In this document: piece by piece, positions 1,894 through 50,372 of the stretch
How the letters are laid out: every line of letters starts with the position of its first letter
Numbering within the stretch: the stretch's first letter is position 1
From: a virus
Taxonomy: Duplodnaviria > Caudoviricetes
Reading direction: 5' to 3' (one strand)
Virus record (IMG/VR): IMGVR_UViG_3300029288_000071
Span: 32,001-96,000 of that record
Length of the DNA: 64,000 nt
Made by a program: the position numbers and the translations under genes
Notes under the pieces: generated by a model
Told to the model about the DNA's origin: nothing
The model's database searches: none
What the model saw: only the letters and a program-made list of their open reading frames with translations

Positions 1894-2145
1894 TTAAGTA
1901 AGTTTTATCTTGTTATATCCCATCTTATACATGAGTGCTTCAATAGAATCATCATTTAACTTTTCAAATCGGTCTGCTCTGAATGGATAATGGATCCCTT
2001 CAATTCGGAGCATGATTCCATCACTTTCAATTGAATCTACTACTAATACTCGATTTTCTATTTCTTTGTAAGTAGTATTTTGTGATGAAGAAGCTTTACT
2101 GTTTATGCATTTAACAAGATTTCCAGGTTGAAGCATAATTTTCAT
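1894..2145 (-). CDS. small protein with C-terminal LMxKMGY motif
   Basis: IEALMYKMGY near the C terminus. Confidence 0.7.
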   Translation of the reverse strand: MKIMLQPGNLVKCINSKASSSQNTTYKEIENRVLVVDSIESDGIMLRIEGIHYPFRADRFEKLNDDSIEALMYKMGYNKIKLT

Positions 2146-2177
2146 TTTATTCAGTTCCTTATATAAATGTTAAGTAT

Positions 2178-2206
2178 AATCTAATACTTTATATAATAAA
2201 AGTAAA
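2178..2206 (-). promoter_or_regulatory. promoter TTTACT-N17-TAGATT
   Basis: Matches repeated motif. Confidence 0.75.
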
Positions 2207-2524
2207 TAGGAGACTGAAATATAAACAGAGTCAAAAGATGATTTTACCTAGAGGCGCGGTAAAACGCGCATTTTTGCTATCATGCCCCGCGGTAGAATAG
2301 ATAAGGGTTAGGCTTTTCGATGTATGTTGAATTCAGTAAAGATCTTATTTGCTGCGATACGCAGAGTATGTTTAACTGATTCATCAGGAGTTACTACTTT
2401 AAGCCAGTTATTTAGCCATTTTGCAAATTCAGCTGGAGTAAGAGGTTTTGATAGAGTTATACAGTCTGGACAGGGAGCATTTATACCTGAATAGTTATGT
2501 TTAGAGCATGTATAAACTGTTTGG

Positions 2525-2887
2525 TTATTGTTCATTGATAAAATCAGTCAATTTTTTTATCTGGCTTCCGTCCAACTTTTTATTCGCCACGGTTCTTAAC
2601 AACATCGGGACACCTTCCATCGCTTTCAATTTTTTTGCGATATCGTTCGGCAGCATCTTGTTATCTAATGAGGCTTGATCCTTAAGCGCCTTTGCCGATT
2701 TAGTATCAAGTTCCAACGCCTCATTTATTGCATCTATGAGTTCCTCTTTTTGAGGAGGCAAGACAGACTCACGCTCAACTCTGGATAGATATGCGACATC
2801 AATATCGGATCGCAGGGCAAGTTCACGTAAAGTGATTTCCTTTTGAGTCCGAATATCTCGTAACATTTGACCGTATCCCATAACATT
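2525..2887 (-). CDS. XRE-family helix-turn-helix regulator
   Basis: YGQMLRDIRTQKEITLRELALRSDIDVAYLSRVER is a typical XRE HTH; start uncertain. Confidence 0.85.
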   Translation of the reverse strand, partial: NVMGYGQMLRDIRTQKEITLRELALRSDIDVAYLSRVERESVLPPQKEELIDAINEALELDTKSAKALKDQASLDNKMLPNDIAKKLKAMEGVPMLLRTVANKKLDGSQIKKLTDFINEQ

Positions 2888-2906
2888 CTCCGTATATATG
2901 GTTGTT

Positions 2907-2951
2907 GTTGTAGTGTTACTACAACATAACAAATCCTTCCGAATATGTCAA
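2907..2951 (-). promoter_or_regulatory. TTGACA-N17-TATGTT promoter with overlapping operator palindrome
   Basis: GTTGTAGT-N3-ACTACAAC at 2907-2925 directly upstream of the XRE gene. Confidence 0.65.
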
Positions 2952-2958
2952 GTGCTTT

Positions 2959-3552
2959 TTATTTCGTATTTCTTCGATGGCATCCATACAAAACAATAAT
3001 CTCCTCATCAATGACTTTTAATTGATAACATTCATTTAATGGCATCACTTGTAACAGAACTTTTCCTGTACTTGGTTTAGTTCCGTTCTCTCTAAAGTCT
3101 TCAGGTTCATAATTTTCATAACATCTAATTGCTTCTTCTTTAGTTTCTCTCCAGAAACCCCAAGCACCCACATTATCTACTTTAACAATTATAGCAAAAG
3201 AACCGATTGGTTTTGCTAAGTTATTTTCTACTAAGTGTTCAACTAAAAATTGGAACTGTATTTGTAACCTTTGTGTAGGTGTAGCTATTGATGTTATTGT
3301 ACCCATTTTATCCATTGTACCCATTTTATCCATTAAAGCATCAATTGTAGTAGTATCTTTATCAACTTCAATACAATCAGCTTTTTGGATTAGCATTATG
3401 CTAAATGAAGGGTTATTACTATTAATAACTTTCCAGCAATCTTGACCATCATGATTTATATGCTTATAAACTTGAAAGACTTGATTTATTTTATCTGCAT
3501 ACCAATAGCTAGACAGAGCTGATTTTATTATTTTTACAAATGTAGTTGCCAT
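2959..3552 (-). CDS. hypothetical protein, probably chimeric
   Basis: Internal LMDKMG motif with a tandem duplication (MDKMGT x2). Confidence 0.55.
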   Translation of the reverse strand: MATTFVKIIKSALSSYWYADKINQVFQVYKHINHDGQDCWKVINSNNPSFSIMLIQKADCIEVDKDTTTIDALMDKMGTMDKMGTITSIATPTQRLQIQFQFLVEHLVENNLAKPIGSFAIIVKVDNVGAWGFWRETKEEAIRCYENYEPEDFRENGTKPSTGKVLLQVMPLNECYQLKVIDEEIIVLYGCHRRNTK

Positions 3553-4335: not shown

Positions 4336-4689
4336 TTAATTATTTGTTTTTTCATCTAGAATTTCATACCCTATTTTGCGCATAATTTGTTGTATTAAAT
4401 CTAATTTTTTAACTTTAAATCCATTTACAAATTGATCAGATCCAATTTCTCCTGTAAATGTTTTAGCTTGTCCAACCCAATTATATGTTTTTCTCTGCTT
4501 TTCATCTTCTTCAGAAAAATAAAACCATTGATTTGTAGCTCTATTATTTTTGAAGCGTGTTGCACAAGCACAAACTTTAAGTTCTGTATAAGTTATTCCG
4601 TTTACGTTTTTGTCTGAAATATCTACAACATGATAAAGAAAAAATTGATTATCATGTATCTCTATAACAGAATTTAAAGTGACTGCCAT
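4336..4689 (-). CDS. hypothetical protein with IMRKIGY motif
   Basis: IQQIMRKIGY near the C terminus. Confidence 0.65.
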   Translation of the reverse strand: MAVTLNSVIEIHDNQFFLYHVVDISDKNVNGITYTELKVCACATRFKNNRATNQWFYFSEEDEKQRKTYNWVGQAKTFTGEIGSDQFVNGFKVKKLDLIQQIMRKIGYEILDEKTNN

Positions 4690-37246: not shown

Positions 37247-37252
37247 AATTTG

Positions 37253-37441: not shown

Positions 37442-37445
37442 TTTG

Positions 37446-37521
37446 TACTCCTAGAGAGATTCGAACTCTCATGATAACTTGTTTAGAAGACAAGTGACTT
37501 ATCCAATTAGTCCATAGGAGC
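37446..37521 (-). tRNA. tRNA-Arg(TCT)
   Basis: CTTGT-CTTCTAA-ACAAG. Confidence 0.87.
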
Positions 37522-37854: not shown

Positions 37855-37929
37855 TACCGTGTATGGGAGTCGAACCCATAATCTCCATCCTTGAAAGGGA
37901 GGTGTGCTTGGCCATTCCACTAACACGGC
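37855..37929 (-). tRNA. tRNA-Glu(TTC)
   Basis: Bulged anticodon stem, loop CTTTCAA. Confidence 0.78.
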
Positions 37930-38212
37930 ATAAATAAATTACTTAATGTGTTTAAACAATATTGATATTTTTTCTTTATCATTACTCTTTCCAACTACTT
38001 TATCGAAAAGTCTTCCTAAAACGCCTGGACGAGAAACAACAATAGTCATATTTTCAGCTAGATTTGTTCCTTGTAAATTAGTAATAAATTTTTCATCAAT
38101 TAAATTTGATAATATTATTTCTTTAACTAGATTTGCAAATCTAGTTAAATCTTCAGCATTGTAAATATATTCTGTTGTTACCATTTGTTCATTCCTTTTA
38201 TAATTGTTTTTG

Positions 38213-38298
38213 TCGGAGTGGAGAGATTCGAACTCTCAAGTTCAGTAATGACCGTGGTTCCAAGCCACGAGGGCTCCCAGCTACCCGCCTACACTCCG
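38213..38298 (-). tRNA. tRNA-Pro(TGG) with long variable arm
   Basis: CGTGG-CTTGGAA-CCACG plus extra arm. Confidence 0.75.
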
Positions 38299-38308
38299 AA
38301 TATTTTTG

Positions 38309-38383
38309 TGCTTCTATTGGGATTTGAACCCAAAGTCTTACGCATTAAAAGTGCGATGATTTAGCCAGTTAATCTATAGAAGC
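38309..38383 (-). tRNA. tRNA-Lys(TTT)
   Basis: CGCA-CTTTTAA-TGCG. Confidence 0.82.
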
Positions 38384-39091
38384 ATTTTTATAACCCATTT
38401 TCTTCATCAATATTCTTATAGGATCGGTTTCAATTTTAGATTTTATTTTTTTATTTTTATTTTCAGGATGATAATCAGGATGATATTTATGTGCTCTTAT
38501 CATTCCATCCCAAAAACCATCATTAACATAATCACGCCATTGCTGTTTAGTCATTGTGCTTCTTCACATCAAATTTTACTGTAAAATAACCACTAATAAA
38601 AGAACCTAAAACTGCTGGAATTAACATCCATTTGTTTTCAACATAACTTAAAATAACTCCTGCTCCCATTAACCAGAGTATTGCTCCAAAAATTGCTGAA
38701 CTAAGAGCTTTACCTTGAGCAGTTCTTCTCATCCATAATACCCAAAGAAATTCTGCAGTAGCAGTTAAAGTAAAAGCGATTATTGATTGTAAGATCCAAT
38801 TCATTTTTGAATAGCCTCAATTTGATCTGCAGTTGCTTCTAGTGAAATTTTTAGTTCAGGTCTAGCAGTATTAAAATAATGATTTCCAATTTGATGAAAA
38901 TTTGGATTACATTGTACATTCCATTGCAATAATCGAATATTTATCATTCTCCAAGCCATTAGATCTCTGAAAAAATCTCCAGTAAATTCTAAAGTTCCGA
39001 TTATAATTAGATCTTTTTCTTTATCAATGATAACATCAAATTCATCAGATTCAGCTTCATTAGTCATAAAATCATCTTTCTTATTTTTTTG

Positions 39092-39174
39092 CGGAGGATG
39101 AGGGACTTGAACCCCCACAACCCGAAGGTACTGGTTTTCAGGACCAGGGCGATACCGTTACGCTTTAATCCTCC
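39092..39174 (-). tRNA. tRNA-Ser(TGA)
   Basis: Type II, G73. Confidence 0.83.
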
Positions 39175-39869
39175 AAATTCTTATCAATCCCATCCATGAC
39201 ACCCACAATAAAATTCATCAAATTCTAAGCCGCCAACACAAGGTTCAAATTGCTTTCCATTATGTTCACATAAAGATTCCATTTTCTTTTTACTATTTTC
39301 GTAATAACCAGTTCCACCTTGAGATGGATGAGCATCAGCAAAATAGAAACAATTTTTACATTTAGATTCATATTTAGAACCTGGGCCTCTATATTCAAAA
39401 AATGCTAAATTTGGTGATGAATCTCTTTCACAAGTGCAAGTTGAACCACATTTTGAACATTCAGACTTATGAGTTTGTTTTCCATAAAAACCGCAGCGAG
39501 CCTTTCTGTTTTTAAGCAATTCTTCTACATTGTGTTCTGTATCAATTTCAAAACAAGAACAAATAACACAAGCAGGTTTGTTATTACTGATAGAATTAGC
39601 AATATGTCCGCATTTCATTAAAGGTTTATTCATATCCCATTTTTCTCATTAATGTAACTATTTCTGCTCCACCATGTCGTCTAATTTGATATGCTTCATG
39701 TAAAGCTTTGTAATTTTGTTGAACAGCAAATGTTGCTAAAGGATTTCCACAACAATGAACATTTAAAATACTTGATTTATATCTGTTTTTATAATTTCTT
39801 TTCCACCAAGCTTGTTCTTTATTCTGTTCTTTTTTCCATTGTTGTATGTCATAATTTATCATAAAGTAG

Positions 39870-39944
39870 TACCGATGTAGGGAGTTGAACCCTATATTTT
39901 TATAGATTATGATTCTATTGCACCAACCGTTATGCGCCATCGGC
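39870..39944 (-). tRNA. tRNA-Met(CAT), elongator or Ile2
   Basis: ATAGA-ATCATAA-TCTAT. Confidence 0.75.
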
Positions 39945-39953
39945 ATTTATTTG

Positions 39954-40025
39954 AGCCGAATACCTGAATCGAACAGGTGACTGAGCTTTACAGGAGCCCC
40001 ATTTTTCCGATTAAACTAATCCGGC
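39954..40025 (-). tRNA. tRNA-Thr(TGT)
   Basis: Cloverleaf. Confidence 0.83.
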
Positions 40026-40339
40026 AAAAATTATCTTTGTGTACCACATCTTTTACATTTACTTCCAAAGAATCCAAAAAAATGACCTCCATTATATTTT
40101 TTGTATTCATTTCCATCTTCCATTTTCTGATAACTAATCCAGCTTAAGTTTTTCTTTACAATAGCCATTTATAAAATGATTTCTTAAAAATAATTGAACA
40201 TTCCAAGCAACAGATTTATATAAACATTCTTTACATAAAAAATAATGATTCCCATTTTCATCAAATTCTTGAATCCAGTCAGGATCTTTTTGAAAATATC
40301 CCATTTTTATCATTAATATTTCTACTTCAGATTTCATTG

Positions 40340-40410
40340 AGCTCTATCTCGGTTACGCTCCGAATTTTGATCCTTACCAAAGATCTGTTCTGCTATTAAA
40401 CTAATAGAGC
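40340..40410 (-). tRNA. tRNA-Thr(GGT), AGCGUAA T-loop
   Basis: GATCT-TTGGTAA-GGATC. Confidence 0.75.
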
Positions 40411-40414
40411 ATTG

Positions 40415-40488
40415 TGCTCATTAAAGGATTTAAACCTTTGGTCTCTGTCTTGTTAGGGCAGCGCTTTCATCAGCTAAGCTAAATGAGC
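40415..40488 (-). tRNA. tRNA-Val(AAC)
   Basis: Loop CTAACAA. Confidence 0.75.
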
Positions 40489-40492
40489 AGTT

Positions 40493-40568
40493 TGGAGCGG
40501 GAAACGGGGCTTAAACCCGTGACCTCATGCTTGGCAAGCACGTGTTCTATCAACTGAACTATTCCCGC
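40493..40568 (-). tRNA. tRNA-Gly(GCC)
   Basis: GCGGGAA acceptor, encoded CCA. Confidence 0.88.
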
Positions 40569-40838
40569 AATAAATTTTTACAACAACTCCAGAAGTAATT
40601 TTACTGCTACTATCAATAAAGCATCCAGGTTCAACTTCATAACCCATTTTTTTCATCATTTCATTAATCTTGAATTCTTCACTAGTAAGATTTTTTATAT
40701 ACCAAACTGATTGATTCTTACTAATAGTTTCAAATTCATGTTCTTTAAAATTTGCTGAAGTATCTTCCATGGCTTAATCTAAAACATTTAATTGATTTTG
40801 TAAATAAAAATCTGGTGCATCTACTGAGAGTCGAACTG

Positions 40839-40910
40839 TGGATCCAAAAGGTACCGCCCCTTTTTCTGTAGTTTAAGAGACTACTGCATCACTGTTAATG
40901 CTTTGGATCC
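40839..40910 (-). tRNA. tRNA-Lys(CTT), GGCGGUA T-loop
   Basis: GTAGT-CTCTTAA-ACTAC. Confidence 0.8.
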
Positions 40911-40946
40911 TTTTTGCTTCATTTAAACAGTCTCTAATTTTTTAAG

Positions 40947-41029
40947 TGCGTATGGAAGGATTCGAACCTCCAATGTCCCTAAGGAGTCTGCTCTACAGGC
41001 AGGTGGGCCACCAGTTGCCCAACATACGC
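40947..41029 (-). tRNA. tRNA-Tyr(GTA)
   Basis: Type II cloverleaf. Confidence 0.83.
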
Positions 41030-41112
41030 ATATATGTCCACAATCTGATTTTGTTTCGTCATCATACCATTTAATTTGATCACATATTTCACATCTTATT
41101 AATTTTATCATG

Positions 41113-41192
41113 TGATCTCGAGGCGATTCGAACGCCTAATTGCAGCTCCAATTACGATTACTAGTTTCGAAGACTAGCTCGGCTACGAGACC
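41113..41192 (-). tRNA. rearranged tRNA-like gene, Arg(TCG) anticodon
   Basis: Same architecture as 35270-35346. Confidence 0.55.
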
Positions 41193-41196
41193 AAAG

Positions 41197-41280
41197 TGGC
41201 AGAGATGAGACTTTAACTCATATTGCTCAAGACTTATCTAGAAAGTTACTTAAGTGTTTTTTCTGTTAAACTACCCTGCA
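41197..41280 (-). pseudogene. degenerate tRNA-like sequence
   Basis: Acceptor, D and T remnants; disrupted anticodon arm. Confidence 0.4.
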
Positions 41281-41475
41281 TTTTAATAAATGGTTGCTTT
41301 AACATCATCAAAAGATGATCAAAAGTTATATGAGAAAAAGACATCCAACTATTTGATTTATCAAACGCAATACCATAAATTTTTCTTTTTGGAATTGAAC
41401 AAATTCCAGTACTTCTTAATAGATGCATTCCTAAAAGTTTGCTTATTGAGAATTTCTCTTTTTCTTTTTTCATAG

Positions 41476-41549
41476 TACACTCAAAGGGATTTGAACCCTT
41501 AACCACCAGTTTCGTAGACTGATGCTCTATCCAGTTGAGCTATGAGTGC
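41476..41549 (-). tRNA. tRNA-Arg(ACG)
   Basis: Canonical cloverleaf. Confidence 0.9.
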
Positions 41550-41550
41550 G

Positions 41551-41622
41551 CTGCTAAAAAAGGATTTGAACCTTTGACTCTTCTTTCAGAGAGAAGTGTT
41601 TTACCAATTAGACTATTTAGCA
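41551..41622 (-). tRNA. tRNA-Gln(CTG)
   Basis: U1-A72, CTTCT-CTCTGAA-AGAAG. Confidence 0.83.
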
Positions 41623-41915
41623 ATTTTTTCTTTATAACCCATTTGATTCATGATATTTTTTATCTGTTGATCTGTTTCATATTCTTCAGAAAAAGTTATT
41701 GAATCAGGAGATACCCAAATAACATGACCAATTTTAAAATATGAATCTCTGTGTTTTTGTATAAGTTCAATGAGAATTTTTTGTTTTTGAAGGATATTAT
41801 TCTTTCGATAATCACGAACTTCTAAAATTTTCCAAAGACCAATTTCATCTCCTGAGTTACTAGGAATGTCATTAACAGTAGCACCAACATGTAATTGTTC
41901 ATATTTCATAACTTG

Positions 41916-41988
41916 CGGTACTGAAGGGAGTCGAACCCTCTCCGATCTCCGTGACAGGGAGCCATCTTAGCCGTTTGACCTCAATACC
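41916..41988 (-). tRNA. tRNA-Asp(GTC)
   Basis: Loop CTGTCAC, G73. Confidence 0.83.
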
Positions 41989-42552
41989 ATTTTAAATTTG
42001 ATAACCCATTTTTAACATTAATCTATTTATATCGTCACTTTTTATTTTTTCTTCTTCAATAAAATATTTTGCCCAATCTGATAGTTGATGAGAATCTTTA
42101 TCTTCATCAATTAATTCTATTTCTTTTTTATTACTATGATCTTTATATCCTGTTCTACCTTTCCAAACTTTATAGAATTTTCCTTTAATGAAACTTGGAT
42201 GATTTTCTGTATCCATAGTCAATGTTTTTGTACAATAAAATAATTTATCTTTCATCATATCCTATTTTTTTCATTAAAACTTTTGTATATAAATCAATAT
42301 CATCAGTTTTCAATAATGTGAAACAATTCCATTCAAAACAACAATAAGGAAATTCTTTTATTTCAACAAGCTTATCAGCATAAATTCGCTGAATAGTATA
42401 AGTTTCTCCAATTTTTATTATTTTATGTATTTCTGTGATTATGCTATAACAAAACTTATTTTCTGTACAAACAACTGTATCTCCTTCTTTATAAGGAATT
42501 TTTAGATTAGCAAATTTGATTCTGAATGTTAATTTATCATCATTCATAGAAG

Positions 42553-42625
42553 AGCTCTTACTCGGAGTCGAACCGAGAATCTATCTTTACGAAAGATAAA
42601 GTTTGGCCAATTAACTTATAAGAGC
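42553..42625 (-). tRNA. tRNA-Thr(CGT)
   Basis: TATCT-TTCGTAA-AGATA. Confidence 0.83.
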
Positions 42626-42630
42626 ATTTC

Positions 42631-42744
42631 GCAGAAGTAATAAAATTCATTGTGGTTTTACCTGCGCTCCTATTGACCAAACCAATGTATTTTATTCAAT
42701 AATTCTGGATAAGCGCATTACCCATAATTAAATTTTACTTCTGC
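42631..42744 (-). ncRNA. rod-like hairpin RNA of unknown class
   Basis: GCAGAAGUAA/UUACUUCUGC terminal stem; inner UGCGCU/AGCGCA. Confidence 0.45.
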
Positions 42745-42752
42745 AAAATTAT

Positions 42753-44675
42753 TTATACTAAAATATTTAAGATACTATCTTTTTCCAAAGTTTCTGGAGA
42801 TAAGTCAATATCACATTTTTTATCTGCTTTATCAACTAAAACTGCTCCAGCTTTTTCTAAGATTTCTCTTAAAGTAATACTGTTACTATAGAAATTAATC
42901 ATATACTTTCTTGCTTTTTCAGTATAATCATTATTTCTAGAAGTAATAGTATTACCAATACTTGACTTCATCAAATAAAACTTATTCTCTGTAGGTTCTG
43001 TTACTAACAAACCTAAGATTTTTTGTTTTTCTTCGATTTTAAGTTTAACTGTAGAAATGATGTTGTTTGGATTTACCATATAATTCTTTGGTAAATTCAC
43101 TTGTTTTTCACTAGCTACAATTAACTTAAACGGAACTGGAATTTGTTCACTAAAGTTGAAGTAGTTAAGCATTAACATGAAGATATTGCTTTTTTGCTTC
43201 TTAATATAAAACAATTCTGAAGCTCCATTAGCAGCATCTGTCATATCACCAGAAAATAAGATACTAGCACCTTCATTACTACCACCACGGCCGTATCTAT
43301 ATTCTCCATCCCATCCAATTTTAACCAATCCAACTAAAGACAAATCTAAGTCTATTCGGTTGCGGTTAACATTTTCCCAGTAAACACCAATTACTAAATC
43401 TTTTGGAACTGTAATAAATGTTCCTTCTGGAAAATTATCAATAAACATCTTTTCAGTTGCTGGTAAAGCATACTCAGTGTTTTTAGGCAAGAATATCTTT
43501 TTACCATCTACTTTTACTTTGATGCTATCAGCAATAGAATCTAAAACAATGTTATAGATTTTTTCAGCTAACTTTTGGTTTTTGAAGCCGAAATCAGTTG
43601 CATAACTTTTTCCATTTCGAATCTTGTATAAAATAGAATCCAATTCATCTTTTGTTCTGAATTTCAAAGCATAAGCTAATCGGATTTTTCTGAAAATGTT
43701 TACTCGACTTAATTCAACTTTTAACTTTTCTTCGTCTATTTTGTTTTTCTTGACATAAGAAGTTACATTGTTCAAGAAATCTTCAGGCATTGGCTTATGA
43801 TATTTAACAGCCAATTTTCTGATTTTGTTAATAGCAGCTTTCAACCCTTTATTAGTTCTGAAAGCTAAAAACAAAGGTTTAAATCTCAAGAAAATTTCAG
43901 CTAATTTTTCTAAGCCGTATTTCTTTGAGTATTTATTAAACAAATTCAAAGCAGCAAGATTGTCTTTGCTTTTGATTTCTGCAATAAGAGCTTTGTTTTT
44001 AATTAACAAAGTTCGATTTGTTGATTTATAAATTATGTATCTCAAGAATTCAATTGGATGTTCAGGAACAACATCAAAATAATCAAAGAAAGCAATTCTT
44101 ACTTCTTTGTTTTTGATATCATTGATTTCTTTTTCATCTATATTAATAATAGAAGTGCTTATGTCTAAGATATCTCTTTTAGAATCTTCACTTAAAGCAA
44201 TTCCACTTTTCAAGATATTCAAAACTTTTTCTTTGATCTCTTCTTTAGTATAGCCTTTGATTACAGTTAACTTGATTTTGTCAAGTTTGATCTTAGGAAT
44301 CTTCAAAGCTTCATCAGGAATATAAACTGTTTTTTCGTCATATATTCCTAATTGTTCAAATCCATAAGTAGTAATGTAATGAACAATTTGTTCAATTACT
44401 AATTGCTCGATAGAAGAATCTTTAATTTTTTTCCAAGACTTATGGAAAGAACTATTTATCTCTTCTGGTGATATACCAACTTCTGATTTTATTGAATCAG
44501 CAATTTTTATCAATTCAGCTTCAGAATAATTGTAAATTACTTCTGGTGAAAAGATAAAACCAAGTTCAACAGTTTTGTTTAATAAAGCTTTTGGATATTT
44601 CTTTTTGCCGTTTTCTTGAATTAAAACAGCTCTAAACAAACGAATTAATGATAACATATTAGTGGATCCTTTCAA
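42753..44675 (-). CDS. large helical protein with C-terminal TerD-like domain
   Basis: DLDLS and FSGDMTDA..GASE motifs resemble TerD; N-terminal two thirds look helical. Confidence 0.65.
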   Translation of the reverse strand: MKGSTNMLSLIRLFRAVLIQENGKKKYPKALLNKTVELGFIFSPEVIYNYSEAELIKIADSIKSEVGISPEEINSSFHKSWKKIKDSSIEQLVIEQIVHYITTYGFEQLGIYDEKTVYIPDEALKIPKIKLDKIKLTVIKGYTKEEIKEKVLNILKSGIALSEDSKRDILDISTSIINIDEKEINDIKNKEVRIAFFDYFDVVPEHPIEFLRYIIYKSTNRTLLIKNKALIAEIKSKDNLAALNLFNKYSKKYGLEKLAEIFLRFKPLFLAFRTNKGLKAAINKIRKLAVKYHKPMPEDFLNNVTSYVKKNKIDEEKLKVELSRVNIFRKIRLAYALKFRTKDELDSILYKIRNGKSYATDFGFKNQKLAEKIYNIVLDSIADSIKVKVDGKKIFLPKNTEYALPATEKMFIDNFPEGTFITVPKDLVIGVYWENVNRNRIDLDLSLVGLVKIGWDGEYRYGRGGSNEGASILFSGDMTDAANGASELFYIKKQKSNIFMLMLNYFNFSEQIPVPFKLIVASEKQVNLPKNYMVNPNNIISTVKLKIEEKQKILGLLVTEPTENKFYLMKSSIGNTITSRNNDYTEKARKYMINFYSNSITLREILEKAGAVLVDKADKKCDIDLSPETLEKDSILNILV

Positions 44676-44686
44676 TTAAAATTTAT

Positions 44687-44889
44687 AAGCGAGAAGTAAT
44701 TACCGTCTGCCCAGGGGCAGACTAGGAGTTGAACCTAGTTATTAGGAACTTCTTTTGCCTATAAAAAGTTTTAGACGGAGAGTAATTGCCTTCAAATGAT
44801 TATTAGGAACTCTCTATGTCTAATTAAAATTCGAAGACGAGAAGTATTTTCTTTCATGTAAGGAATTTTATTAGGAACTTCTTATGTCT
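44687..44889 (-). repeat. three tandem copies of structured RNA motif B (Y-RNA-like)
   Basis: AGAC-AUA-AGAAGU-UCCUA...U-ACUUCU-C-GUCU at 44687-44760, 44773-44821, 44835-44889. Confidence 0.75.
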
Positions 44890-44997
44890 TCTTTAAAAAA
44901 ACGGTTCGTATTGTTGAGATTTTCACTCAATCACTTTTTCAAGTGTTTAAGCACAGCTGGGATTTCTCCAACAGCTAACATTTCGTGCTAATACAGG

Positions 44998-45071
44998 TGG
45001 ACCCAAAGGGAGTCGAACCCTCAACTATGCGGTGCAAGCGCATCGTTTTCCCAATTGGCTACTATGGGCCC
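44998..45071 (-). tRNA. tRNA-Ala(TGC)
   Basis: G3.U70. Confidence 0.85.
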
Positions 45072-45637
45072 CATTTCAATTTCAAGTATTCTTGAACTTT
45101 ATCAAAAACTTCTTTTTTGTATTTTGAATGAATATAACCATGATGATTTCTGCATAATGGAACTAGATTTTCAGGTCTATTGTCATTGTGAATTAAATTT
45201 ATGTGATGTGCACAAACCATTTTTTCTTCAGGACATATAATACATTTTTTGCCATGATGCTTAAAACAAATTGTTCTATAACTAAATGTTGATTTAGTTC
45301 CATTTTTCTTAAAATTTTCGGCTCTTACAAGGGCTCCAACTTTATTGGAGCATTTTCTAGAACAATAATACTTTTCTTTTTTTGGAAATTCTTTTTCATA
45401 TTCTTCAACATCAAATTTACATTTACAAATTTCACAAACAACTTTAAATATTTTTTTCTTTCCTTTTATTCTTTCAGTTCTAGCAATATTTCCTTTTGCT
45501 AATTTTTCTCTAGTTTGTTGGGAAATAAAAATTCTGTTCTTATTTGAAGAACATCTATTTTGATGATAAGAAATTCCAGTTTTTGTTGTAAAAATTTTTC
45601 TATTACAAAATTTACATATTTGATTTTCTTTTTCCAT
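45062..45637 (-). CDS. HNH homing endonuclease
   Basis: CIIC..HHIN..NRPENLVPLCRNHH; Zn-finger repeats; start uncertain. Confidence 0.8.
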   Translation of the reverse strand: MEKENQICKFCNRKIFTTKTGISYHQNRCSSNKNRIFISQQTREKLAKGNIARTERIKGKKKIFKVVCEICKCKFDVEEYEKEFPKKEKYYCSRKCSNKVGALVRAENFKKNGTKSTFSYRTICFKHHGKKCIICPEEKMVCAHHINLIHNDNRPENLVPLCRNHHGYIHSKYKKEVFDKVQEYLKLKWGP

Positions 45638-45750
45638 GATGATAAATATCATGGAGACCGAGTTAAAATTGTACTTTCGCCCCCACGGCACATGTGAGCC
45701 CATATTATATTTGTAATCTAATACTTAATTGTGTTAAAGTAAACAAAATG

Positions 45751-45835
45751 CTCAACCGGTAGGATTCGAACCTACGATGTCTTTTGGACGACGGCTTAAC
45801 AGGCCGCTGTGGTACCGGGCTCCACGCACGGTTGA
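45751..45835 (-). tRNA. tRNA-Asn(GTT) with long variable arm
   Basis: CGGC-CTGTTAA-GCCG plus GTC-CAAAA-GAC arm. Confidence 0.78.
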
Positions 45836-46187
45836 ATGATAAATGCGGCTAACTGCAAAAAGTATTTACTGTTTCCATCCGGTAACCGGCCCTAGTGTCT
45901 GCTTTTTGGTTAATTCCAATGCCGCTATGTCAATGAACTTGAGAAGTAAATGAGACTCGAACTCAAAATAACTACCTAGTACTTCTAAAAATTAAAACTG
46001 ATTATAAAAATGTGTAAAGATTAAAAAATTTTTAGCGTGATGCTAAGTTCGGTTGATAACTATGCTTTCGTTCCGATTTGGCTGAAGTAAGCACGTTATC
46101 TGATGTAGTCCCGAGTATATTATCAGGTCTAATCGTATTGGGGCAATATGTAAAGCGTAGAGTTTTCATTTTTATTTTTTAAAATTT

Positions 46188-46251
46188 AGACGAGAAGTAT
46201 TTTCTGGTAGCCGCTGATGGCGGCTTGATTTAATAGGAACTTCTTATGTCT
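46188..46251 (-). ncRNA. structured RNA motif B, fourth copy
   Basis: Terminal stems identical to 44835-44889; directly downstream of a promoter motif. Confidence 0.7.
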
Positions 46252-46341
46252 AAGTAAAAATAATAAATAATTTAACTAGTTATAATATAATACATTCAAA
46301 GTTAAAAGTAAACGACTTTTTCAACTTTTTTTACTTTTTGT

Positions 46342-46413
46342 TGCAGGTATAGGAATCGAACCTATGTACCTGGGTTATGAGCCCAGCGGGGAGCCACTCC
46401 ATCGTAACCCGCA
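46342..46413 (-). tRNA. initiator tRNA-Met(CAT)
   Basis: GGG/CCC anticodon stem. Confidence 0.78.
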
Positions 46414-46922
46414 ATGTAAAAATAAATATCTTTGAAATTCCAAAACAAGTAACAACTGCTAAAAAATTAATCAGCTGTATGATTAAGCTGTATGTTTAAG
46501 CCAAAATGCAGTAGGTGTTCCAGCTGGTTGAACAGGTTCTTCATTTGTTGCAGTAAAAGTTGTTGAACCAGAATCAGCTTGTTTTCCATTATCACCTATA
46601 GTTCTTACAAATAGAACAACTTCAGAATCAGTAGGAAGATCTATATCAATCTCTGATTGACTAGAAGACATATCTGCTCCAAATTGAGCTGGTGTAGCTC
46701 CATTGAGCCCTACAAAAAGTTGTTGTTTGTCTACAAAAGTAGTTGTTGACAAAGTCCAAGAAATTCTATATTGTTCCATATTTTCTTTCTTACGTAAATA
46801 AGTAGCTTTTAAATTGGTTATTGGAGCTACTTTTCTGTTCTTTTTCCATAGATAATAAGCTAGAGCAGCAAGTAAAACTATTATTAAAATTATCCACACA
46901 GCTTCTCCTTACTTATTAATTG

Positions 46923-46999
46923 CGCATCCAAAGAGAATCGAACTCTTCCATCTGGTTTTGGAGACCGGATCGCCTTTATCCTTGGAACATGTGGATGCA
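46923..46999 (-). tRNA. tRNA-Trp(CCA)
   Basis: Loop CTCCAAA, G73. Confidence 0.78.
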
Positions 47000-47186
47000 T
47001 TAAAGGGCTACTTTTGCTAAATCAACGATTTCCTGTAGCCCTTTAGCTTTTATAAAGCTATTTTATGTTTGGAAATTCGAGGAAAGTTTTTATCTTTTGG
47101 ATAAAAGTTTAATGAAGTGAATAAATATCATTCATTTCAGCTATTATCCTATAGGAAGCTTTCAAACCTTGAGTACTTGACTGCTA

Positions 47187-47660
47187 TTATGTTATTTCAA
47201 TTAATTTAGTTTTAGAAATTGGTTCTATTTTCTTTTTATTAATAGTTACTATTAGTAATCCATCTTTTACATTTGCTATAATTGAATTTTCATCAAGATC
47301 TTCAGATAAGGTAAAAGCTCTAGAAAAAGCAGAAGAATGAATTTCTTTTCTTAAAACTTTTCCTGTAGATTCAGAAGAACTTTGATTTTTTTCACCTGAA
47401 ATAACTAAATATTTTGTTCCTGCTTCATCAGGAGTTATTTCAATTTTCAAGTTTTCTTTTTTCAAACCTGGAACTGTTGCAGTTATTTCAAGTTTTGAAG
47501 GATATTCTTGAATATCTACTTTTGGAAAACTTCCTTTTGTACTTTGAACTGGACTATTGAAAAAATCATCAATATTTTGGTTCCATAAAACATTGAATAT
47601 ATCTTCAAATGAACCTTTGATTAAATTTGGATATTGTCTTTTTATAATTGATTGAGTCAT
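47187..47660 (-). CDS. Hsp20/alpha-crystallin small heat shock protein
   Basis: FPKVDI, VPGLKKE, ISGEK, FSRAFTL, DGLLIV. Confidence 0.92.
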   Translation of the reverse strand: MTQSIIKRQYPNLIKGSFEDIFNVLWNQNIDDFFNSPVQSTKGSFPKVDIQEYPSKLEITATVPGLKKENLKIEITPDEAGTKYLVISGEKNQSSSESTGKVLRKEIHSSAFSRAFTLSEDLDENSIIANVKDGLLIVTINKKKIEPISKTKLIEIT

Positions 47661-47834
47661 GATAGATCTCCGTAAATAGCAGTCCCTGAGGATGGTATAT
47701 TTAGAATATACTTATGATAGCACTTTATAGGCGCCGTCACATCTTGCTCAGGATTTACCTGCTGAGTTGCTAAATAGCTAACTCATGTTTATTATATGTC
47801 AAAGAACCTTTAAGAGCAACATTCTAGCGAAATG

Positions 47835-48263
47835 TGGACCTGTGCGGATTCGAACCGCAGTGTTACTATAATTAAATCTGAATTTCTACAAGTTTATCTA
47901 ATTTTCCAGTGCGAAATTTGAGCTCGCAAAAATGTCTGGTACAAATTTGATATAGCAGAAAAATTAGAAAACTTACTATATCTCATCAAGTAATTTTTTA
48001 ATGAAGATCACTTGATAAGAACTTCAGACCTGAAACCAATTGCCGAGGACACCAGTTAGTCTACAAATTTTCGAAGTGGCTAACAACTACGTTACTAAAG
48101 CTTTTTAGGCTAAAGCAAATTCATTTTGAGAAACAAAAGCTAAAGCATCCTCAAAAGTGAAGGCAGATTTTTGTTCTGCATTTATGTTTTTAGATAAGTT
48201 TAAAGAGCTTCAAGCTCTACTTGCTATTCAGTTCGCTTATAATAGTCGATACCTTTCAGGCCC
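47835..48263 (-). ncRNA. ssrA: tmRNA
   Basis: 5' GGGCCUGAAAGGUAUCGAC, 3' T-arm + CAGGUCCA, G3.U70; tag AEQKSAFTFEDALAFVSQNEFALA* at 48105-48179. Confidence 0.9.
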
Positions 48264-49496
48264 TCCAAAAACTTAATAATTAGTGGGTTCTTTTATAGAA
48301 TATTCTTGAATCAAATTTGTGCATCCATTAATAACAAGTGATAAAACCTGGATTGCAAATCTAGCTGGTTTATTGCAAGTGTTGTTTCTAATATAAGCAA
48401 TTATTCCATTTGCTAATGCTGCAATTTCTGCAGGCTCTACGTTTTGTGGCATTTCTATTCTCGTTAATTTGTTTGACCGGTCAAGACTCTAATAATCAAT
48501 TTCATTTCTTATATAAATATAATTCAAATTCAAATTAAAGTAAACAAAAATTTTCTATTCTTCAATATACCAAGCTTCTATTTCTTTTGATTTGATCAGA
48601 GCTACAATCTTTTCAGCTTCTTCTAAAGTTACTTTACTCTTAGACTTAACAGCTAAAGTAGTTTCTTGACCTTCATATGGGAAAGCATATTTTCCAAATT
48701 CAATGGGTGAAAAAGAATTTACATAACTGGATCTGCCAAATTTTGTATTATCTTCAAAATAAACTCTATATTTTGTAGCATTTTTTAGAATTTGAGCTTC
48801 TTGTTGCTCTTTTTCTTTCTTCTCTTTCCATCTCTTTTGATTAATTGTAGTTTGTTCTGGATTATCTCTAGAAAATAGATAACAAGCAGAACACATACCA
48901 AAAGATTTCCACATTAACTCTTCATGAGGAGATGATTGCATACAAGTTCCTTTATTTTCAGTGCCTCTAATTTCGTCACATCTAGGACAAAAGAATGGAA
49001 TCTTACCACTAAAAGGAGCTTTAATTTCAACTTCTGCTTCTTGAAGATTTTCACCGGGTCTAGGTAAAACTATACCCATTTTCTTAATAATTTCTAAGTA
49101 GTCTTCTGGTTTTTCTGTTTTTGACATTCTGGTTTTTGAACAACAAGATTTTTATGAATGATTTTCATGATACTATCATTACTATCTTCAACTTTAATAC
49201 CCTTTTGTTCTAAAATTTTTTTAATATCTGATTTTTTGATCATTCATTTTGTTTTCTAATATCCCATTTTACTTAGGAGTAAGCTCTCATATTCAGGTTC
49301 CTTTTGAATTCCTGTTTCTTGTAATAATTCTTCAGCATTAACAATTCTTGATAATCCACAATGAACACAAGATAAAGAAACTTTTCCTTTGAAAAATCCT
49401 TCATACTTCTTAGAATCACCCACTTCTTCAATTTCCCACTGATGAATTTCATTAGTTTCAGAACATTTACAAAACAAATTATGTTTGTTTGAAAAA

Positions 49497-50372
49497 TCAA
49501 GTGAAAATATCATTTTTATTTTTTTCTTTCATTTTAATAATTTCTTTTTTCTTACCTTTTCGAGAAATAACTTCTACAGTAAACCCTCTTTTTATCCAAT
49601 GATTTCTCAAAACTTCAGGATTAATGTATGCTTTTTTAGCAATTCCCGGAGTATTTCCTAATACTTTAGATACATTGACTACAATTTCTTTAACTTCTGA
49701 ACTTACATCTTTTTTCTTAAAATTATTTTCTCTTACTTTTAATTGATTCAAAATAGCTTTTGATAATTTTGCAGCTTCTACATTAGCTCTAAAAGCTCTA
49801 AAATCTTTGGGAGAAAAACCAAAACCAATTGATCTTTTTACTAATCGATTAACTTCAATTTTTGTAATTTCTTTTCCATTGATAGTCAACCAACGGTCAA
49901 AACCTTGATCAAAAAATTGCTTTCCTACTTCAATAAGAAAAGGATCAGAAACTGTAATAAGTTGATCAACTGATTTCTTTCCAACAAAACTAAGAATCAT
50001 TTTAGAAGGATTTGCTAAATCAACTTTTCCATTAATATCATAAAAACCTACATGATTTCGAAGTAAAGTAGTTAATCCATAAGTCTGGACAGTTTGACCT
50101 TCAGTTTTCTTTGCTTTAGAAACATAACCTTCAGCACTATCTTCATTTCCAACTCTAATTCCTGTTTCAATCATCATAAGAACTGCAAAAGCACAAGCTT
50201 TTCTTTCAGTGATCCCTTTAACAGAACAATATTCTCTAAGTTTAGAATCAATTTCAGAATAGTTTTGCTGAATTTTTGCTACTCTATTGAATTTTGCTAT
50301 TTCTTTGTCTCGACCCTTGAATCTCCCATTGGGATTTCCACCAAGATAAAGATTTTCTGTATTTTGCAGCAT
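49497..50372 (-). CDS. type IB DNA topoisomerase (bacterial/viral type)
   Basis: IRVGNE, YGLTTL, FVGK, PKDFR, LGNTPGIAKKAYI. Confidence 0.9.
   Translation of the reverse strand: MLQNTENLYLGGNPNGRFKGRDKEIAKFNRVAKIQQNYSEIDSKLREYCSVKGITERKACAFAVLMMIETGIRVGNEDSAEGYVSKAKKTEGQTVQTYGLTTLLRNHVGFYDINGKVDLANPSKMILSFVGKKSVDQLITVSDPFLIEVGKQFFDQGFDRWLTINGKEITKIEVNRLVKRSIGFGFSPKDFRAFRANVEAAKLSKAILNQLKVRENNFKKKDVSSEVKEIVVNVSKVLGNTPGIAKKAYINPEVLRNHWIKRGFTVEVISRKGKKKEIIKMKEKNKNDIFT

What the first reader, a model, noticed from the sequence alone, without database searches (positions are those of the whole stretch)
1894..49513. About 17 unrelated small proteins carry the same LMxK(M/I)GY tag, mostly at the C terminus
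Seen: ALMYKMGY (1894), ALMDKMGT (2959, internal), QIMRKIGY (4336), ILMQKIGY (31893), DLMKKIGY (33413), LLMQKIGY (35924), NLMYKLGY (36273), QLMYKMGY (36712), VLMKRIGY (37524), ILMKKMGY (38369), TLMRKMGY (39626), ILMIKMGY (40134, N-terminal), EMMKKMGY (40525, internal), NIMNQMGY (41613), RLMLKMGY (41992), VLMKKIGY (42245), LLLSKMGY (49256). Codons vary, so conservation is at the protein level. Inference: a portable helix-cap docking or sorting signal that recruits diverse effectors to one partner or location, or a degron.
Basis: partly seen in the sequence, partly recalled or inferred. Interest (0 to 1): 0.85.

Follow-up and report, generated by a model that had tools for sequence, protein, structure and literature searches.

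The report
Shared peptide tag on phage orphans
In this uncultured 207-kb T4-like landfill phage, about one gene in twelve encodes a small, otherwise unrelated protein carrying the same 12-residue helix (usually at its C-terminal end), which behaves like an address label whose reader I could not identify.

Summary
Shuffled proteins predict 0.1 in the window and 0.3 genome-wide, where 28 are seen. 23 of those 28 lie within 10 residues of the stop codon.

Conservation is purely at protein level: identical residues share a codon 57.8% of the time, against 57.1% expected from codon usage. With the tag masked, the carriers show no similarity by BLAST or hhalign and match no Pfam or PHROG family.

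The unit is a proline-bounded helix, D-P-I-x-x-L-M-K-K-(I/M)-G-Y-(E/D)-(V)-(P). It can also sit at an N terminus or at a fusion joint.

Thirteen carriers lie in slots between tRNA genes in a 15-kb tRNA island. A relative keeps the tRNA order and the tag but swaps most cargo.

The tag is missing from the nearest other capsid relatives (44% identity or less). I found it on phage proteins only in this small landfill clade.

Best reading: a portable docking label. A strict C-terminal degron, an RNA or DNA signal and hidden paralogy are disfavoured.

Two earlier follow-ups of this scan on the same genome reached the same reading, and the scan has seen analogous tags with other sequences in other large phages.

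The parts
1894..2145 (-). Tagged ORF, 83 aa; tag LMYKMGY at 1915-1935, 6 residues before the stop; a strong promoter lies 18 nt upstream (window ~2164-2213)
2959..3552 (-). 197-aa ORF with an internal, degenerate, duplicated tag (LMDKMGT-MDKMGT) at 3316-3336, between a 72-aa N-terminal part and a 118-aa C-terminal part; probably a fusion of a tagged gene with its downstream neighbour
4336..4689 (-). Tagged ORF, 117 aa; IMRKIGY at 4366-4386, 9 residues before the stop
31893..32147 (-). Tagged ORF, 84 aa; LMQKIGY at 31911-31931; its 3' end overlaps an Rfam-only tRNA (31829-31900) by 8 nt
33413..33640 (-). Tagged ORF, 75 aa; Cys-rich zinc-ribbon-like body, charged helix, then LMKKIGY immediately before the stop; a tRNA begins 4 nt downstream; orthologue in G001 is 61% identical and tagged
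35924..36190 (-). Tagged ORF, 88 aa; LMQKIGY at 35933-35953; residues 24-53 resemble a conserved portal segment (own portal residues 241-270)
   Evidence: Portal_T4 E 0.004; pairwise E 8e-5
36273..36725 (-). Tagged ORF, 150 aa; LMYKLGY at 36306-36326, 10 residues before the stop
36712..36924 (-). Tagged ORF; LMYKMGY at 36724-36744; the listed TTG start overlaps tRNA-Pro (36878-36952), so the real start is probably the ATG near 36876 (~54 aa)
37524..37850 (-). Tagged ORF, 108 aa, filling the slot between tRNA-Leu (37854-37929) and tRNA-Arg (37445-37521); LMKRIGY immediately before the stop; the G001 orthologue is 35% identical overall but 10 of 12 in the tag
38369..38554 (-). Tagged ORF, 61 aa; LMKKMGY at 38390-38410; its last 15 nt overlap tRNA-Lys (38308-38383)
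39626..39946 (-). Tagged ORF; LMRKMGY at 39632-39652, 1 residue before the stop; the listed start overlaps an Rfam-only tRNA (39870-39944), so the real start is probably near 39862
40134..40337 (-). 67-aa ORF with the tag at its N terminus (residues 8-14, 40296-40316); the start codon lies 1 nt after tRNA-Thr (40339-40410)
40525..40770 (-). 81-aa ORF; MMKKMGY at 40639-40659; the frame reads on 37 codons into tRNA-Gly (40493-40568); the G001 orthologue stops 10 residues after the tag
41613..41909 (-). Tagged ORF, 98 aa; IMNQMGY at 41634-41654; its last 10 nt overlap tRNA-Gln (41550-41622)
41992..42258 (-). Tagged ORF, 88 aa; LMLKMGY at 42001-42021; tRNA-Asp begins 3 nt downstream; the G001 orthologue (45% identical, tagged) sits at a different genome position
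42245..42547 (-). Tagged ORF, 100 aa; LMKKIGY at 42257-42277; first gene after tRNA-Thr (42552-42625)
49256..49513 (-). Tagged ORF, 85 aa, Cys-rich; LLSKMGY immediately before the stop
25577..46998 (-). tRNA island: 27 tRNA genes called by ARAGORN plus 7 called only by Rfam, all on the minus strand. From about 31.7 to 42.6 kb they alternate with small ORFs, 13 of them tagged. The tRNA order is conserved in relative G001.
45701..45750 (-). One of 14 strong promoter sites sharing a consensus (TATTTACT, about 17 nt, then TAGATT/TAAATT). It is the nearest such site upstream of the tRNA/tag island.
30485..31675 (-). 396-aa vWA-domain protein with an intact D-x-S-x-S metal site, at the downstream edge of the tag island. 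It is a candidate reader only by position; comparative support is weak (see the rival explanations).
1..1149 (-). 3' part of a 435-aa MoxR/AAA_5-like ATPase (genome 31842-33149), embedded in the first tag cluster (genome 25.4-36.7 kb). It is a candidate partner of the vWA protein.
   Evidence: phrog_1297 E 6.5e-28

Best explanation
The tag is an autonomous, portable peptide module: a 9-10-residue amphipathic helix with an Asp-Pro start and a Gly-Tyr end. When more protein follows, it is closed by Glu-Val-Pro.

This phage lineage has attached it to about 30 unrelated small accessory proteins. It is usually at the C terminus, sometimes at the N terminus, and sometimes left internal after a gene fusion.

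I infer that the helix docks all these proteins on one common partner, acting as an address label, so that a varied and fast-changing set of small proteins shares one destination or handler.

The genes lie behind strong sigma-70-type promoters and inside a tRNA island, so I infer early or middle expression in the cytoplasm.

Shown here: enrichment, protein-level selection, unrelated carriers, positional freedom, lineage restriction, and cargo turnover with the tag retained. Inferred: docking, a single reader, and expression timing.
For: 1. Enrichment is roughly 100-fold or more over shuffles, with a strong bias to termini.
2. Synonymous sites are fully randomised: 57.8% same codon against 57.1% expected. 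Met, Gly and Tyr are nonetheless kept in 28, 34 and 30 of 34 copies. That indicates long-standing purifying selection on the peptide itself.
3. Carriers have no detectable kinship and no Pfam or PHROG family.
4. The same unit works at the C terminus, at the N terminus (window 40134-40337, and two more copies outside the window) and internally. It is bounded by D-P upstream and E-V-P downstream.
5. Relative G001 is syntenic, with core proteins 65-83% identical, and has 11 tagged ORFs in 39.6 kb. Four are orthologues of tagged genes here and all four keep the tag. Seven have no homologue in this genome.
6. A protein with two tags in tandem, just after the ribonucleotide reductase gene, is conserved in at least four 50%-identity clusters. 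Its tags are far better kept than its body.
7. The tag is absent from 27 records whose major capsid protein is related, 26 of them at 44% identity or less. These include a complete 195-kb genome sharing 39 core genes.
8. The two low-confidence AlphaFold models put the tag in a helix that follows a low-confidence linker or a long charged helix. This is weak support only.
Against: - No partner was found, and binding was not demonstrated by any method here.
- The amphipathicity is only moderate: mean hydrophobic moment 0.50, against a random mean of 0.31 and a 95th percentile of 0.59.
- The linker before the tag is only mildly enriched in charged residues.
- Expression timing rests on promoter consensus and gene context alone. 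No RNA data exist for this phage.
- Only two fragmentary close relatives, plus a few contigs of 0.7-4 kb, could be compared.
Confidence: 0.6

Rival explanations
1. Capsid or prohead targeting. The helix docks the small proteins on the scaffold or the inner face of the gp23-type shell, so they are packaged and injected with the DNA. This would resemble the T4 capsid targeting sequence on internal proteins, or encapsulin cargo-loading peptides.
For: - The phage has T4-type head genes: Gp23, Portal_T4, a large terminase and an acidic scaffold-like protein.
- In T-even phages the internal proteins are a diverse set that share only a conserved targeting sequence (PMC3012670).
- A few carriers contain snippets of portal or capsid proteins.
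- Encapsulin and microcompartment cargo use short terminal helices on unrelated proteins (my own knowledge).
Against: - The tag is mostly C-terminal, whereas the T4 sequence is N-terminal.
- No conserved (L/I)-x-E protease site adjoins it.
- The genes lie behind sigma-70-type promoters and in the tRNA island, not with the head genes.
- About 30 different cargo species would be many for one head.
Confidence: 0.12
2. Turnover tag. The helix is recognised by a host or phage protease, or by its adaptor, so that all these accessory proteins are short-lived, or drag bound targets to degradation.
For: - The bias to termini.
- The [MIL]-G-[Y] tripeptide superficially resembles the [LIV]-G-[FL] loops with which Clp ATPases dock on ClpP. 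This is my own recollection and was not tested.
- The phage invests in protein quality control, since it carries its own tmRNA.
Against: - A free C terminus is not required: 0-10 variable residues follow the tag, and some copies are N-terminal or internal.
- The tmRNA-encoded tag, which ends in ALA, is unrelated.
- It is hard to see why 9% of genes would be made unstable in the same way.
Confidence: 0.12
3. Client peptide of the phage's own MoxR-like AAA+ ATPase and vWA protein. The vWA metal site captures the tag, possibly through the acidic residue or carboxylate after Gly-Tyr, and the ATPase remodels or releases the client.
For: - A MoxR/AAA_5-like ATPase (phrog_1297, E 6.5e-28) lies inside the first tag cluster. 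A vWA protein with an intact D-x-S-x-S motif lies at the edge of the second.
- MoxR-vWA pairs are described as chaperone and co-chaperone, with the vWA domain binding a peptide (PMC7159879).
- Glu, Asp or the stop codon follows Gly-Tyr in 19 of 34 copies.
- Earlier follow-ups of this scan proposed the same kind of reader for other tags in other large phages. These are leads only.
Against: - Both Pfam matches are below the curated cut-offs.
- G001 has other genes at the syntenic vWA position.
- A 229-kb phage from the same landfill has a 41%-identical vWA homologue but no LMxKMGY tag and no other shared terminal peptide.
- The tag-less relative G011 has the ATPase.
Confidence: 0.08
4. Membrane-targeting amphipathic helix, like the C-terminal helices of MinD or FtsA, which would bring the small proteins to the inner face of the membrane.
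For: The hydrophobic residues follow an i, i+3, i+4, i+7 pattern with flanking Lys/Arg. The helix is terminal and the hydrophobic moment is above average.
Against: - The helix has only about 9 residues.
- Near-invariance of Met, Gly and Tyr is not expected for lipid binding.
- The hydrophobic moment is below the 95th percentile of random 10-mers.
Confidence: 0.06
5. The conserved element is really an RNA or DNA signal lying in coding sequence, such as a tRNA 5'-leader processing site, a translational coupling signal or a recombination linker.
For: Seven tagged ORFs in the island end within 4 nt of, or overlap, the 5' end of the next tRNA. The tag therefore often lies in what would be a tRNA leader.
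Against: - Codon choice is indistinguishable from genome usage.
- The distance from tag to the next feature varies from 0 to more than 100 nt.
- Many tags are followed by protein genes rather than tRNAs, and untagged ORFs abut tRNAs just as often.
- All copies are in frame on the coding strand.
Confidence: 0.02

Closest known systems
Capsid targeting sequence (CTS) of T-even internal proteins (IPI, IPII, IPIII, Alt)
   Same: It is a short conserved peptide, the only thing shared by a diverse and fast-evolving set of small accessory proteins in a T4-type phage (PMC3012670). It is portable to foreign proteins.
   Different: - The CTS is N-terminal and is removed by the prohead protease. This tag is mostly C-terminal and has no adjoining cleavage motif.
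- There are about 30 carriers here, against a handful in T4.
- The genes sit in promoter-rich early-type regions and a tRNA island.
- Packaging was not tested.
Encapsulin cargo-loading peptides and bacterial microcompartment encapsulation peptides (my own knowledge)
   Same: These are short helices or peptides at an N or C terminus, joined by a linker. They are the only shared feature of unrelated cargo proteins, and they dock cargo on one shell protein. Encapsulin shells share the HK97 fold of phage capsids.
   Different: No shell other than the capsid is evident here.
Hub-binding terminal motifs: C-terminal sliding-clamp tails of T4 gp43/gp33/gp55, the SSB C-terminal tip, ssrA-type degrons (my own knowledge)
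   Same: One short terminal peptide lets unrelated proteins share one binding site.
   Different: - Those clients are known replication, transcription or quality-control proteins, not dozens of orphans.
- No gp45 or DnaN clamp gene was found in this phage.
- The tag resembles neither the clamp motif nor the phage's own tmRNA tag.
MoxR AAA+ / vWA chaperone pairs with peptide capture (Kaur et al. 2020, PMC7159879; Iyer et al. 2021, PMC7824862)
   Same: The phage encodes a MoxR-like ATPase and a vWA protein with an intact metal site, next to the tag clusters. vWA domains are proposed to capture a peptide of the client.
   Different: The papers read here describe no link to a shared tag. Co-occurrence in relatives is not supported.
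Analogous tags noted earlier by this scan in other large phages and archaeal viruses (AI notes)
   Different: The tag sequences differ. Those tags sit exactly at the C terminus, whereas this one tolerates trailing residues and N-terminal placement. Here the carriers are also interleaved with tRNA genes.

Membership tests
T4-type capsid targeting sequence | About 10 residues at the N terminus of the precursor | tested here: not met
   23 of 28 copies lie within 10 residues of the C terminus. Only about 3 are N-terminal.
T4-type capsid targeting sequence | Followed by a prohead-protease site, (L/I)-x-E, so that the signal is removed | tested here: not met
   No conserved Glu in the required register next to the tag in the 34-copy alignment.
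T4-type capsid targeting sequence | Carriers are found inside the virion | not testable with these tools
   The phage is uncultured and no proteome is available.
ssrA-like C-terminal degron | The signal ends at the free C-terminal carboxylate | tested here: not met
   Only 4 of 28 copies end exactly at Tyr. In the others, 1-10 variable residues follow, and some copies are N-terminal or internal.
ssrA-like C-terminal degron | Resemblance to the tag encoded by the resident tmRNA | tested here: not met
   The phage tmRNA (RF00023, 71.5 bits), read from the aligned resume codon, gives a 24-residue tag ending in FALA.
Sliding-clamp-binding tail | A clamp gene in the phage, and a clamp-type motif | tested here: not met
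   No PF00712 or PF09116 match in the genome. The tag does not resemble QL[SD]LF (motif recalled from my own knowledge).
MoxR-vWA client peptide | A MoxR-type ATPase and a vWA protein with a metal-binding site are encoded | tested here: met
   PHROG ATPase E 6.5e-28, with AAA_5 at 20.8 bits against a cut-off of 22. vWA at 21.2 bits against 23.8, with D-A-S-G-S present. Family membership is therefore probable but below the Pfam cut-offs.
MoxR-vWA client peptide | The tag and the vWA/ATPase pair co-occur across relatives | tested here: inconclusive
   G001 lacks the vWA gene at the syntenic site, but only 24% of that genome is in hand. G033 has the vWA homologue without tags. G011 has the ATPase without tags.
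Single paralogous domain family | Similarity between carriers outside the tag | tested here: not met
   Best BLASTP E-value 0.15 with the tag masked. hhalign probability is below 9% in 350 of 351 pairs.
Nucleic-acid signal within coding sequence | Excess conservation at synonymous sites | tested here: not met
   Same-codon fraction 0.578, against 0.571 expected.
Terminal encapsulation or cargo-loading helix (microcompartment or encapsulin type) | A short helix at either terminus, set off from the body, on unrelated cargo | tested here: met
   This concerns the form only.
Terminal encapsulation or cargo-loading helix (microcompartment or encapsulin type) | A dedicated shell protein that binds the helix | not testable with these tools
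   The only shell in the genome is the gp23-type capsid. Binding needs experiment.

The most novel reading that the evidence does not exclude
The tag and the tRNA-punctuated slots together form a plug-in system. Any small gene that lands between two tRNA genes and acquires the 12-residue label is released as its own message by tRNA processing. Its product is then delivered to one machine, either a phage or host unfoldase/protease or the phage MoxR-vWA pair.

Some cargoes are snippets of portal, capsid, protease and terminase proteins. These could act as decoys that bind host sensors of those hallmark proteins and drag them to that machine. That would be a phage-encoded targeted-degradation or sequestration system.
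Probability: 0.08. Interest if true: 0.9.

Novelty: new variant of a known kind. Interest (0 to 1): 0.62.

Why it matters
Large phages are full of small orphan genes with no handle on function. A label shared by about 9% of the genes says that these orphans act through, or are handled by, one common partner. Finding that single partner would give a first functional clue for about 30 proteins at once.

The label is short, works at either end of a protein, and appears to tolerate almost any cargo. It could therefore become a tool if its reader is found.

The interleaving with a conserved tRNA scaffold suggests how phages create and exchange such accessory genes. The same scan has met analogous but different tags in other large phages, so this may be a general, undescribed way in which big phages organise their accessory proteomes.

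Tried and rejected
- Co-folding. One job was run with the 30-residue tag profile as partner against the major capsid protein (13-row alignment) and the scaffold-like protein. The verdict was 'no answer', score 0.00. This is not evidence either way.
- Tag profile against 5.8 billion proteins (word-indexed). It returned only this genome's own proteins and one near-identical copy of window 33413-33640.
- Tag profile against 1.84 billion representatives. Only the double-tag family passed E 0.001. Single tags are too short to score, so the search cannot say how widespread they are.
- Exact-pattern scan of IMG/VR. It found two related contigs, G001 and G002, and about 40 chance or unrelated hits.
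- Metagenome scan with the double-tag pattern. It found one 1.5-kb contig.
- GTDB scan with the tag pattern. All 80 listed loci held one hit each. They fall inside folded domains of TRAP transporter permeases, proteins that look RarA-like, 5'-nucleotidase-like and RpiR-like, or in short spurious frames. The family names are my reading of the flanking motifs and no family search was run. They give no host clue and no native linear motif.
- A weak Pfam hit of one carrier to Bac_small_YrzI (E 0.029) was not followed up.
- T4 late-promoter word TATAAATA. It is not enriched on the coding strand, so no late/early assignment was possible that way. The generic sigma-70 scan of the island was below shuffle expectation.
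- Sequencing runs. No RNA holder is listed.
- Cargo turnover. Tagged genes have a G001 homologue less often than small untagged neighbours (4 of 13 against 24 of 44), but the difference is not significant (p 0.21).
- The 640-aa protein upstream of the island (83% identical in G001) was considered as a reader. It belongs to a family widespread in phages, with structural likeness to a bacterial RING-domain family, so it is not specific to the tag-bearing clade.
- Megablast of the island against GenBank phages found no match.

Full report
**What the window is.** The window is bases 32001-96000 of a single 207,030-bp virus record with 29.4% G+C. Of its 338 ORFs, 308 are on the minus strand.
- The head genes are T4-type: Gp23 at E 3e-69, Portal_T4 at E 2e-69, and a T4-type large terminase.
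- Replication uses a DnaE-type Pol III alpha, with gp32, RecA/UvsX, a DnaB helicase and a class II ribonucleotide reductase.
- No gp45 or DnaN clamp gene was detected.
- The DNA is held in full by one landfill-metagenome run. GenBank phages have no close match.

**The observation.**
- The pattern [LIM][LM]x[KRQN][MIL]G[YT] occurs 17 times in the window's ORFs, against 0.095 expected from per-protein shuffles. Genome-wide it occurs 28 times against 0.275.
- In the six-frame translation a slightly narrower pattern, [LIM][LIM]x[KRQ][MIL]G[YT], occurs 28 times on the coding strand and once on the other.
- 23 of 28 copies lie within 10 residues of the stop codon (p 8e-17).
- Three more degenerate C-terminal copies lie just outside the window (LKNLGY, TAKMGY and LERIGY). 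Two possible ones lie inside it, at ORFs 11194-11511 and 19168-19437.
- Roughly 9% of the genes therefore carry the tag.

**Protein or nucleic acid?** The aligned DNA shows Gly as GGA 17 and GGT 14, with six different Leu codons. Over all pairs of 30 copies, identical non-Met/Trp residues use the same codon in 57.8% of 2022 comparisons, against 57.1% expected from genome codon usage. No two 36-nt tag segments exceed 83% identity. There is thus no extra constraint on the RNA or DNA and no sign of recent copying. Selection acts on the peptide.

**Anatomy of the tag.** The extended consensus is (D/T)-P-I-x-x-L-M-(K)-K-(I/M)-G-Y. It is followed by E/D and often by V/I, and by Pro when more protein follows, as in ...KIGYEVPTK and ...KMGYEVPRE.
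- Hydrophobic residues fall at i, i+3, i+4 and i+7.
- The hydrophobic moment is moderate: 0.50, against a random mean of 0.31.
- Two AlphaFold models of carriers were of low confidence (mean pLDDT 51 and 66). Both put the tag in a helix, after a low-confidence coil in one and at the end of a long charged helix in the other.
- The unit also occurs at the very N terminus. Examples are window 40134-40337 and two genes outside the window at genome positions 14.3 and 23.9 kb.
- It also occurs internally. In 2959-3552 the internal copy is degenerate and duplicated (LMDKMGT-MDKMGT), consistent with decay after fusion with the downstream gene.
- In 40525-40770 the frame simply reads on into tRNA-Gly. 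The orthologue in the relative stops 10 residues after the tag.

**The carriers.**
- With the tag masked, the best BLASTP E-value among 27 carriers is 0.15.
- All-against-all hhalign of the bodies gives one 51% match over a 10-column Cys knuckle, and below 9% for the other 350 pairs.
- None matches a Pfam or PHROG family above noise.
- Several are Cys-rich zinc-ribbon-like proteins.
- One carrier in the window (35924-36190) contains a 30-residue stretch resembling the phage's own portal residues 241-270. The pairwise E-value is 8e-5, and Pfam Portal_T4 matches at E 0.004.
- Outside the window, two carriers contain capsid-protein segments (E 2e-8 and 5e-11). This agrees with what two earlier follow-ups on this genome reported.
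- Such fragments are a minority, about 4 of 28.

**Genomic setting.**
- A de novo search of intergenic DNA found a strong promoter consensus: TATTTACT, about 17 nt, then TAGATT or TAAATT. There are 14 sites, all on the minus strand.
- Five of them lie inside the first tag cluster (genome 25-37 kb). One lies 18 nt upstream of tagged ORF 1894-2145.
- The second and larger cluster (window 31.9-42.5 kb) lies inside a tRNA island. The island has 27 tRNA genes called by ARAGORN, 7 more called only by Rfam, and a tmRNA at 47832-48263.
- In the island, tRNA genes and small ORFs alternate one by one. Thirteen of these ORFs are tagged.
- Seven tagged ORFs stop within 4 nt of the next tRNA's 5' end or overlap it. 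Untagged ORFs in the island do the same, so tRNA adjacency is a property of the island, not of the tag.
- The nearest strong promoter upstream of the island is at window 45750.
- From this I infer, but have not shown, early or middle expression and release of the small messages by tRNA processing.

**Relatives.**
- An exact-pattern scan of IMG/VR found two contigs from one landfill metagenome. G001 (39.6 kb) has 11 tagged ORFs and G002 (20.3 kb) has 4.
- G001 is syntenic with genome 42-76 kb. Shared proteins are mostly 55-83% identical.
- G001 has the same order of tRNA genes. However, only 4 of the 13 tagged genes of this stretch have a homologue there. All four are tagged, at 27-59% identity. 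G001 carries 7 tagged genes with no homologue here.
- The tRNA scaffold and the tag are therefore kept while the cargo changes.
- A protein with two tags in tandem, just after the ribonucleotide reductase gene, was the only family to pass a profile search of 1.84 billion representatives. It has four clusters, from landfill and other metagenomes.
- The major capsid protein has one 92%-identical relative. After that, identity drops to 44% or less.
- None of 27 such records shows the tag. One of them, the 92% relative, is a 45-kb fragment whose extent was not mapped. The other 26, at 44% identity or less, include a complete 195-kb genome that shares 39 core genes.
- The tag is a lineage-specific invention.

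- Clamp: no clamp gene was found in the phage.
- tmRNA: its tag, read from the aligned resume codon, has 24 residues ending in FALA and is unrelated.
- MoxR/vWA: a lead came from notes on other genomes and from the literature on MoxR-vWA chaperone pairs (PMC7159879; PMC7824862). The phage does encode a MoxR/AAA_5-like ATPase inside the first tag cluster, and a vWA protein with an intact D-x-S-x-S site at the edge of the second.
- Comparative support for that pair is lacking. G001 has other genes at the vWA position. A 229-kb phage with a 41%-identical vWA homologue has no tags of any kind. The tag-less G011 has the ATPase.
- 640-aa protein: the conserved protein upstream of the island belongs to a family widespread in phages, so it is not clade-specific.
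- Host genomes: a scan of 185,579 prokaryote genomes found the heptapeptide only inside folded domains of unrelated families.
- The single co-folding job is reported only under Tried and rejected.

**Interpretation.**
- Several facts are what one expects of a portable docking peptide read by one partner. They are the near-invariant Met, Gly and Tyr under randomised codons, the freedom to sit at either terminus, the proline boundaries, the unrelated and rapidly exchanged cargo, and the restriction to one lineage.
- They argue against a signal that needs a free C terminus, against a lipid-binding helix (which would not need such identity), against a nucleic-acid element, and against hidden paralogy.
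- Which partner reads the tag remains open.
- I rank the generic address-label reading at about 0.6. Within it I give similar, low odds to prohead targeting, a protease or adaptor, and the MoxR-vWA pair. A host hub that cannot be named without knowing the host takes much of the rest.

**Novelty.**
- Shared targeting peptides are a known kind. Examples are the T4 capsid targeting sequence (PMC3012670), encapsulin and microcompartment peptides, degrons and clamp tails.
- I found no description of this tag, of a tag on a tenth of a phage's genes, or of its association with a tRNA-punctuated cassette array.
- Two earlier follow-ups of this scan reached the same reading on neighbouring windows of this genome. 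The scan has also noted analogous tags with other sequences in other large phages.
- This report therefore adds to a known lead rather than opening a new one. It adds the codon test, the tRNA-slot architecture, the comparison with G001, the absence from capsid relatives, and the negative comparative test of the vWA candidate.

Noticed in passing
window 25577-46998 (minus strand): A tRNA island holds 27 tRNA genes called by ARAGORN plus 7 called only by Rfam, alternating one by one with small ORFs. The tRNA order is conserved in relative G001 while the ORFs between them are largely exchanged. It looks like a cassette array punctuated by tRNAs.
   Followed up: partly
window 47832-48263 (minus strand): A phage-encoded tmRNA (Rfam RF00023, 71.5 bits) that ARAGORN does not call. 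Read from the aligned resume codon, its tag is unusually long (24 residues) and ends in FALA.
   Followed up: partly
window 41613-41622, 38369-38383, 31893-31900, 40525-40568: Four tagged ORFs have their stop codon inside the next tRNA gene. If RNase P cuts at the tRNA 5' end, these messages would lose their stop codon and become substrates of the phage's own tmRNA.
   Followed up: no
14 sites, e.g. window 2213, 8189, 15047, 19154, 24246, 45750 (minus strand): A very strong shared promoter-like consensus: TATTTACTGTTAAGT-n-GTTAAGTATTAGATTATA. It is found only on the coding strand and is concentrated in genome 18-56 kb.
   Followed up: partly
window 42753-44675 (minus strand): A 640-aa protein, 83% identical in G001. 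It belongs to a large phage family of ~630-aa proteins. Its Atlas model aligns at TM 0.72 with a bacterial RING-domain family (MXAN_6230/SCO0854), with a TerD-like part. Its function is unknown.
   Followed up: partly
window 20030-21322, 17152-19089 and 28767-29300 (minus strand): An RtcB-type tRNA splicing ligase (PHROG E 1e-128), an NAD-dependent DNA ligase with a BRCT domain, and an RNase H-like protein lie upstream of the tRNA island. Together with the tRNAs and tmRNA they suggest an RNA-repair and translation-support module.
   Followed up: no
genome 140251-140484 (outside the window; L063:1251-1484): A 77-aa protein with two tags in tandem, overlapping the end of the class II ribonucleotide reductase gene. 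It is the best-conserved tag carrier. The synteny of reductase, double tag and capsid-fragment mini-protein is kept in L064 and L065.
   Followed up: partly
genome 127953-131153 (outside the window): This T4-type phage replicates with a DnaE-type Pol III alpha (PHP, alpha, finger and HHH domains) rather than a gp43 family-B polymerase. The distant relatives G011 and G033 also carry it.
   Followed up: no
L065:345-793: In one metagenomic relative, the homologue of the protease/capsid-fragment mini-protein lacks the internal tag. The next ORF begins M-R-Q-I-G-Y-D-V, that is, with the second half of the tag. The tag can apparently mark a gene split or fusion point.
   Followed up: no
window 11194-11511 and 19168-19437 (minus strand): Two possible degenerate tags ending in Gly-Phe (LKDLGF and LKQIGF), 13 and 23 residues from the C terminus. 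The first belongs to the set of four proteins with a shared N-terminal leader beside a radical-SAM gene that another first-reader note describes.
   Followed up: no
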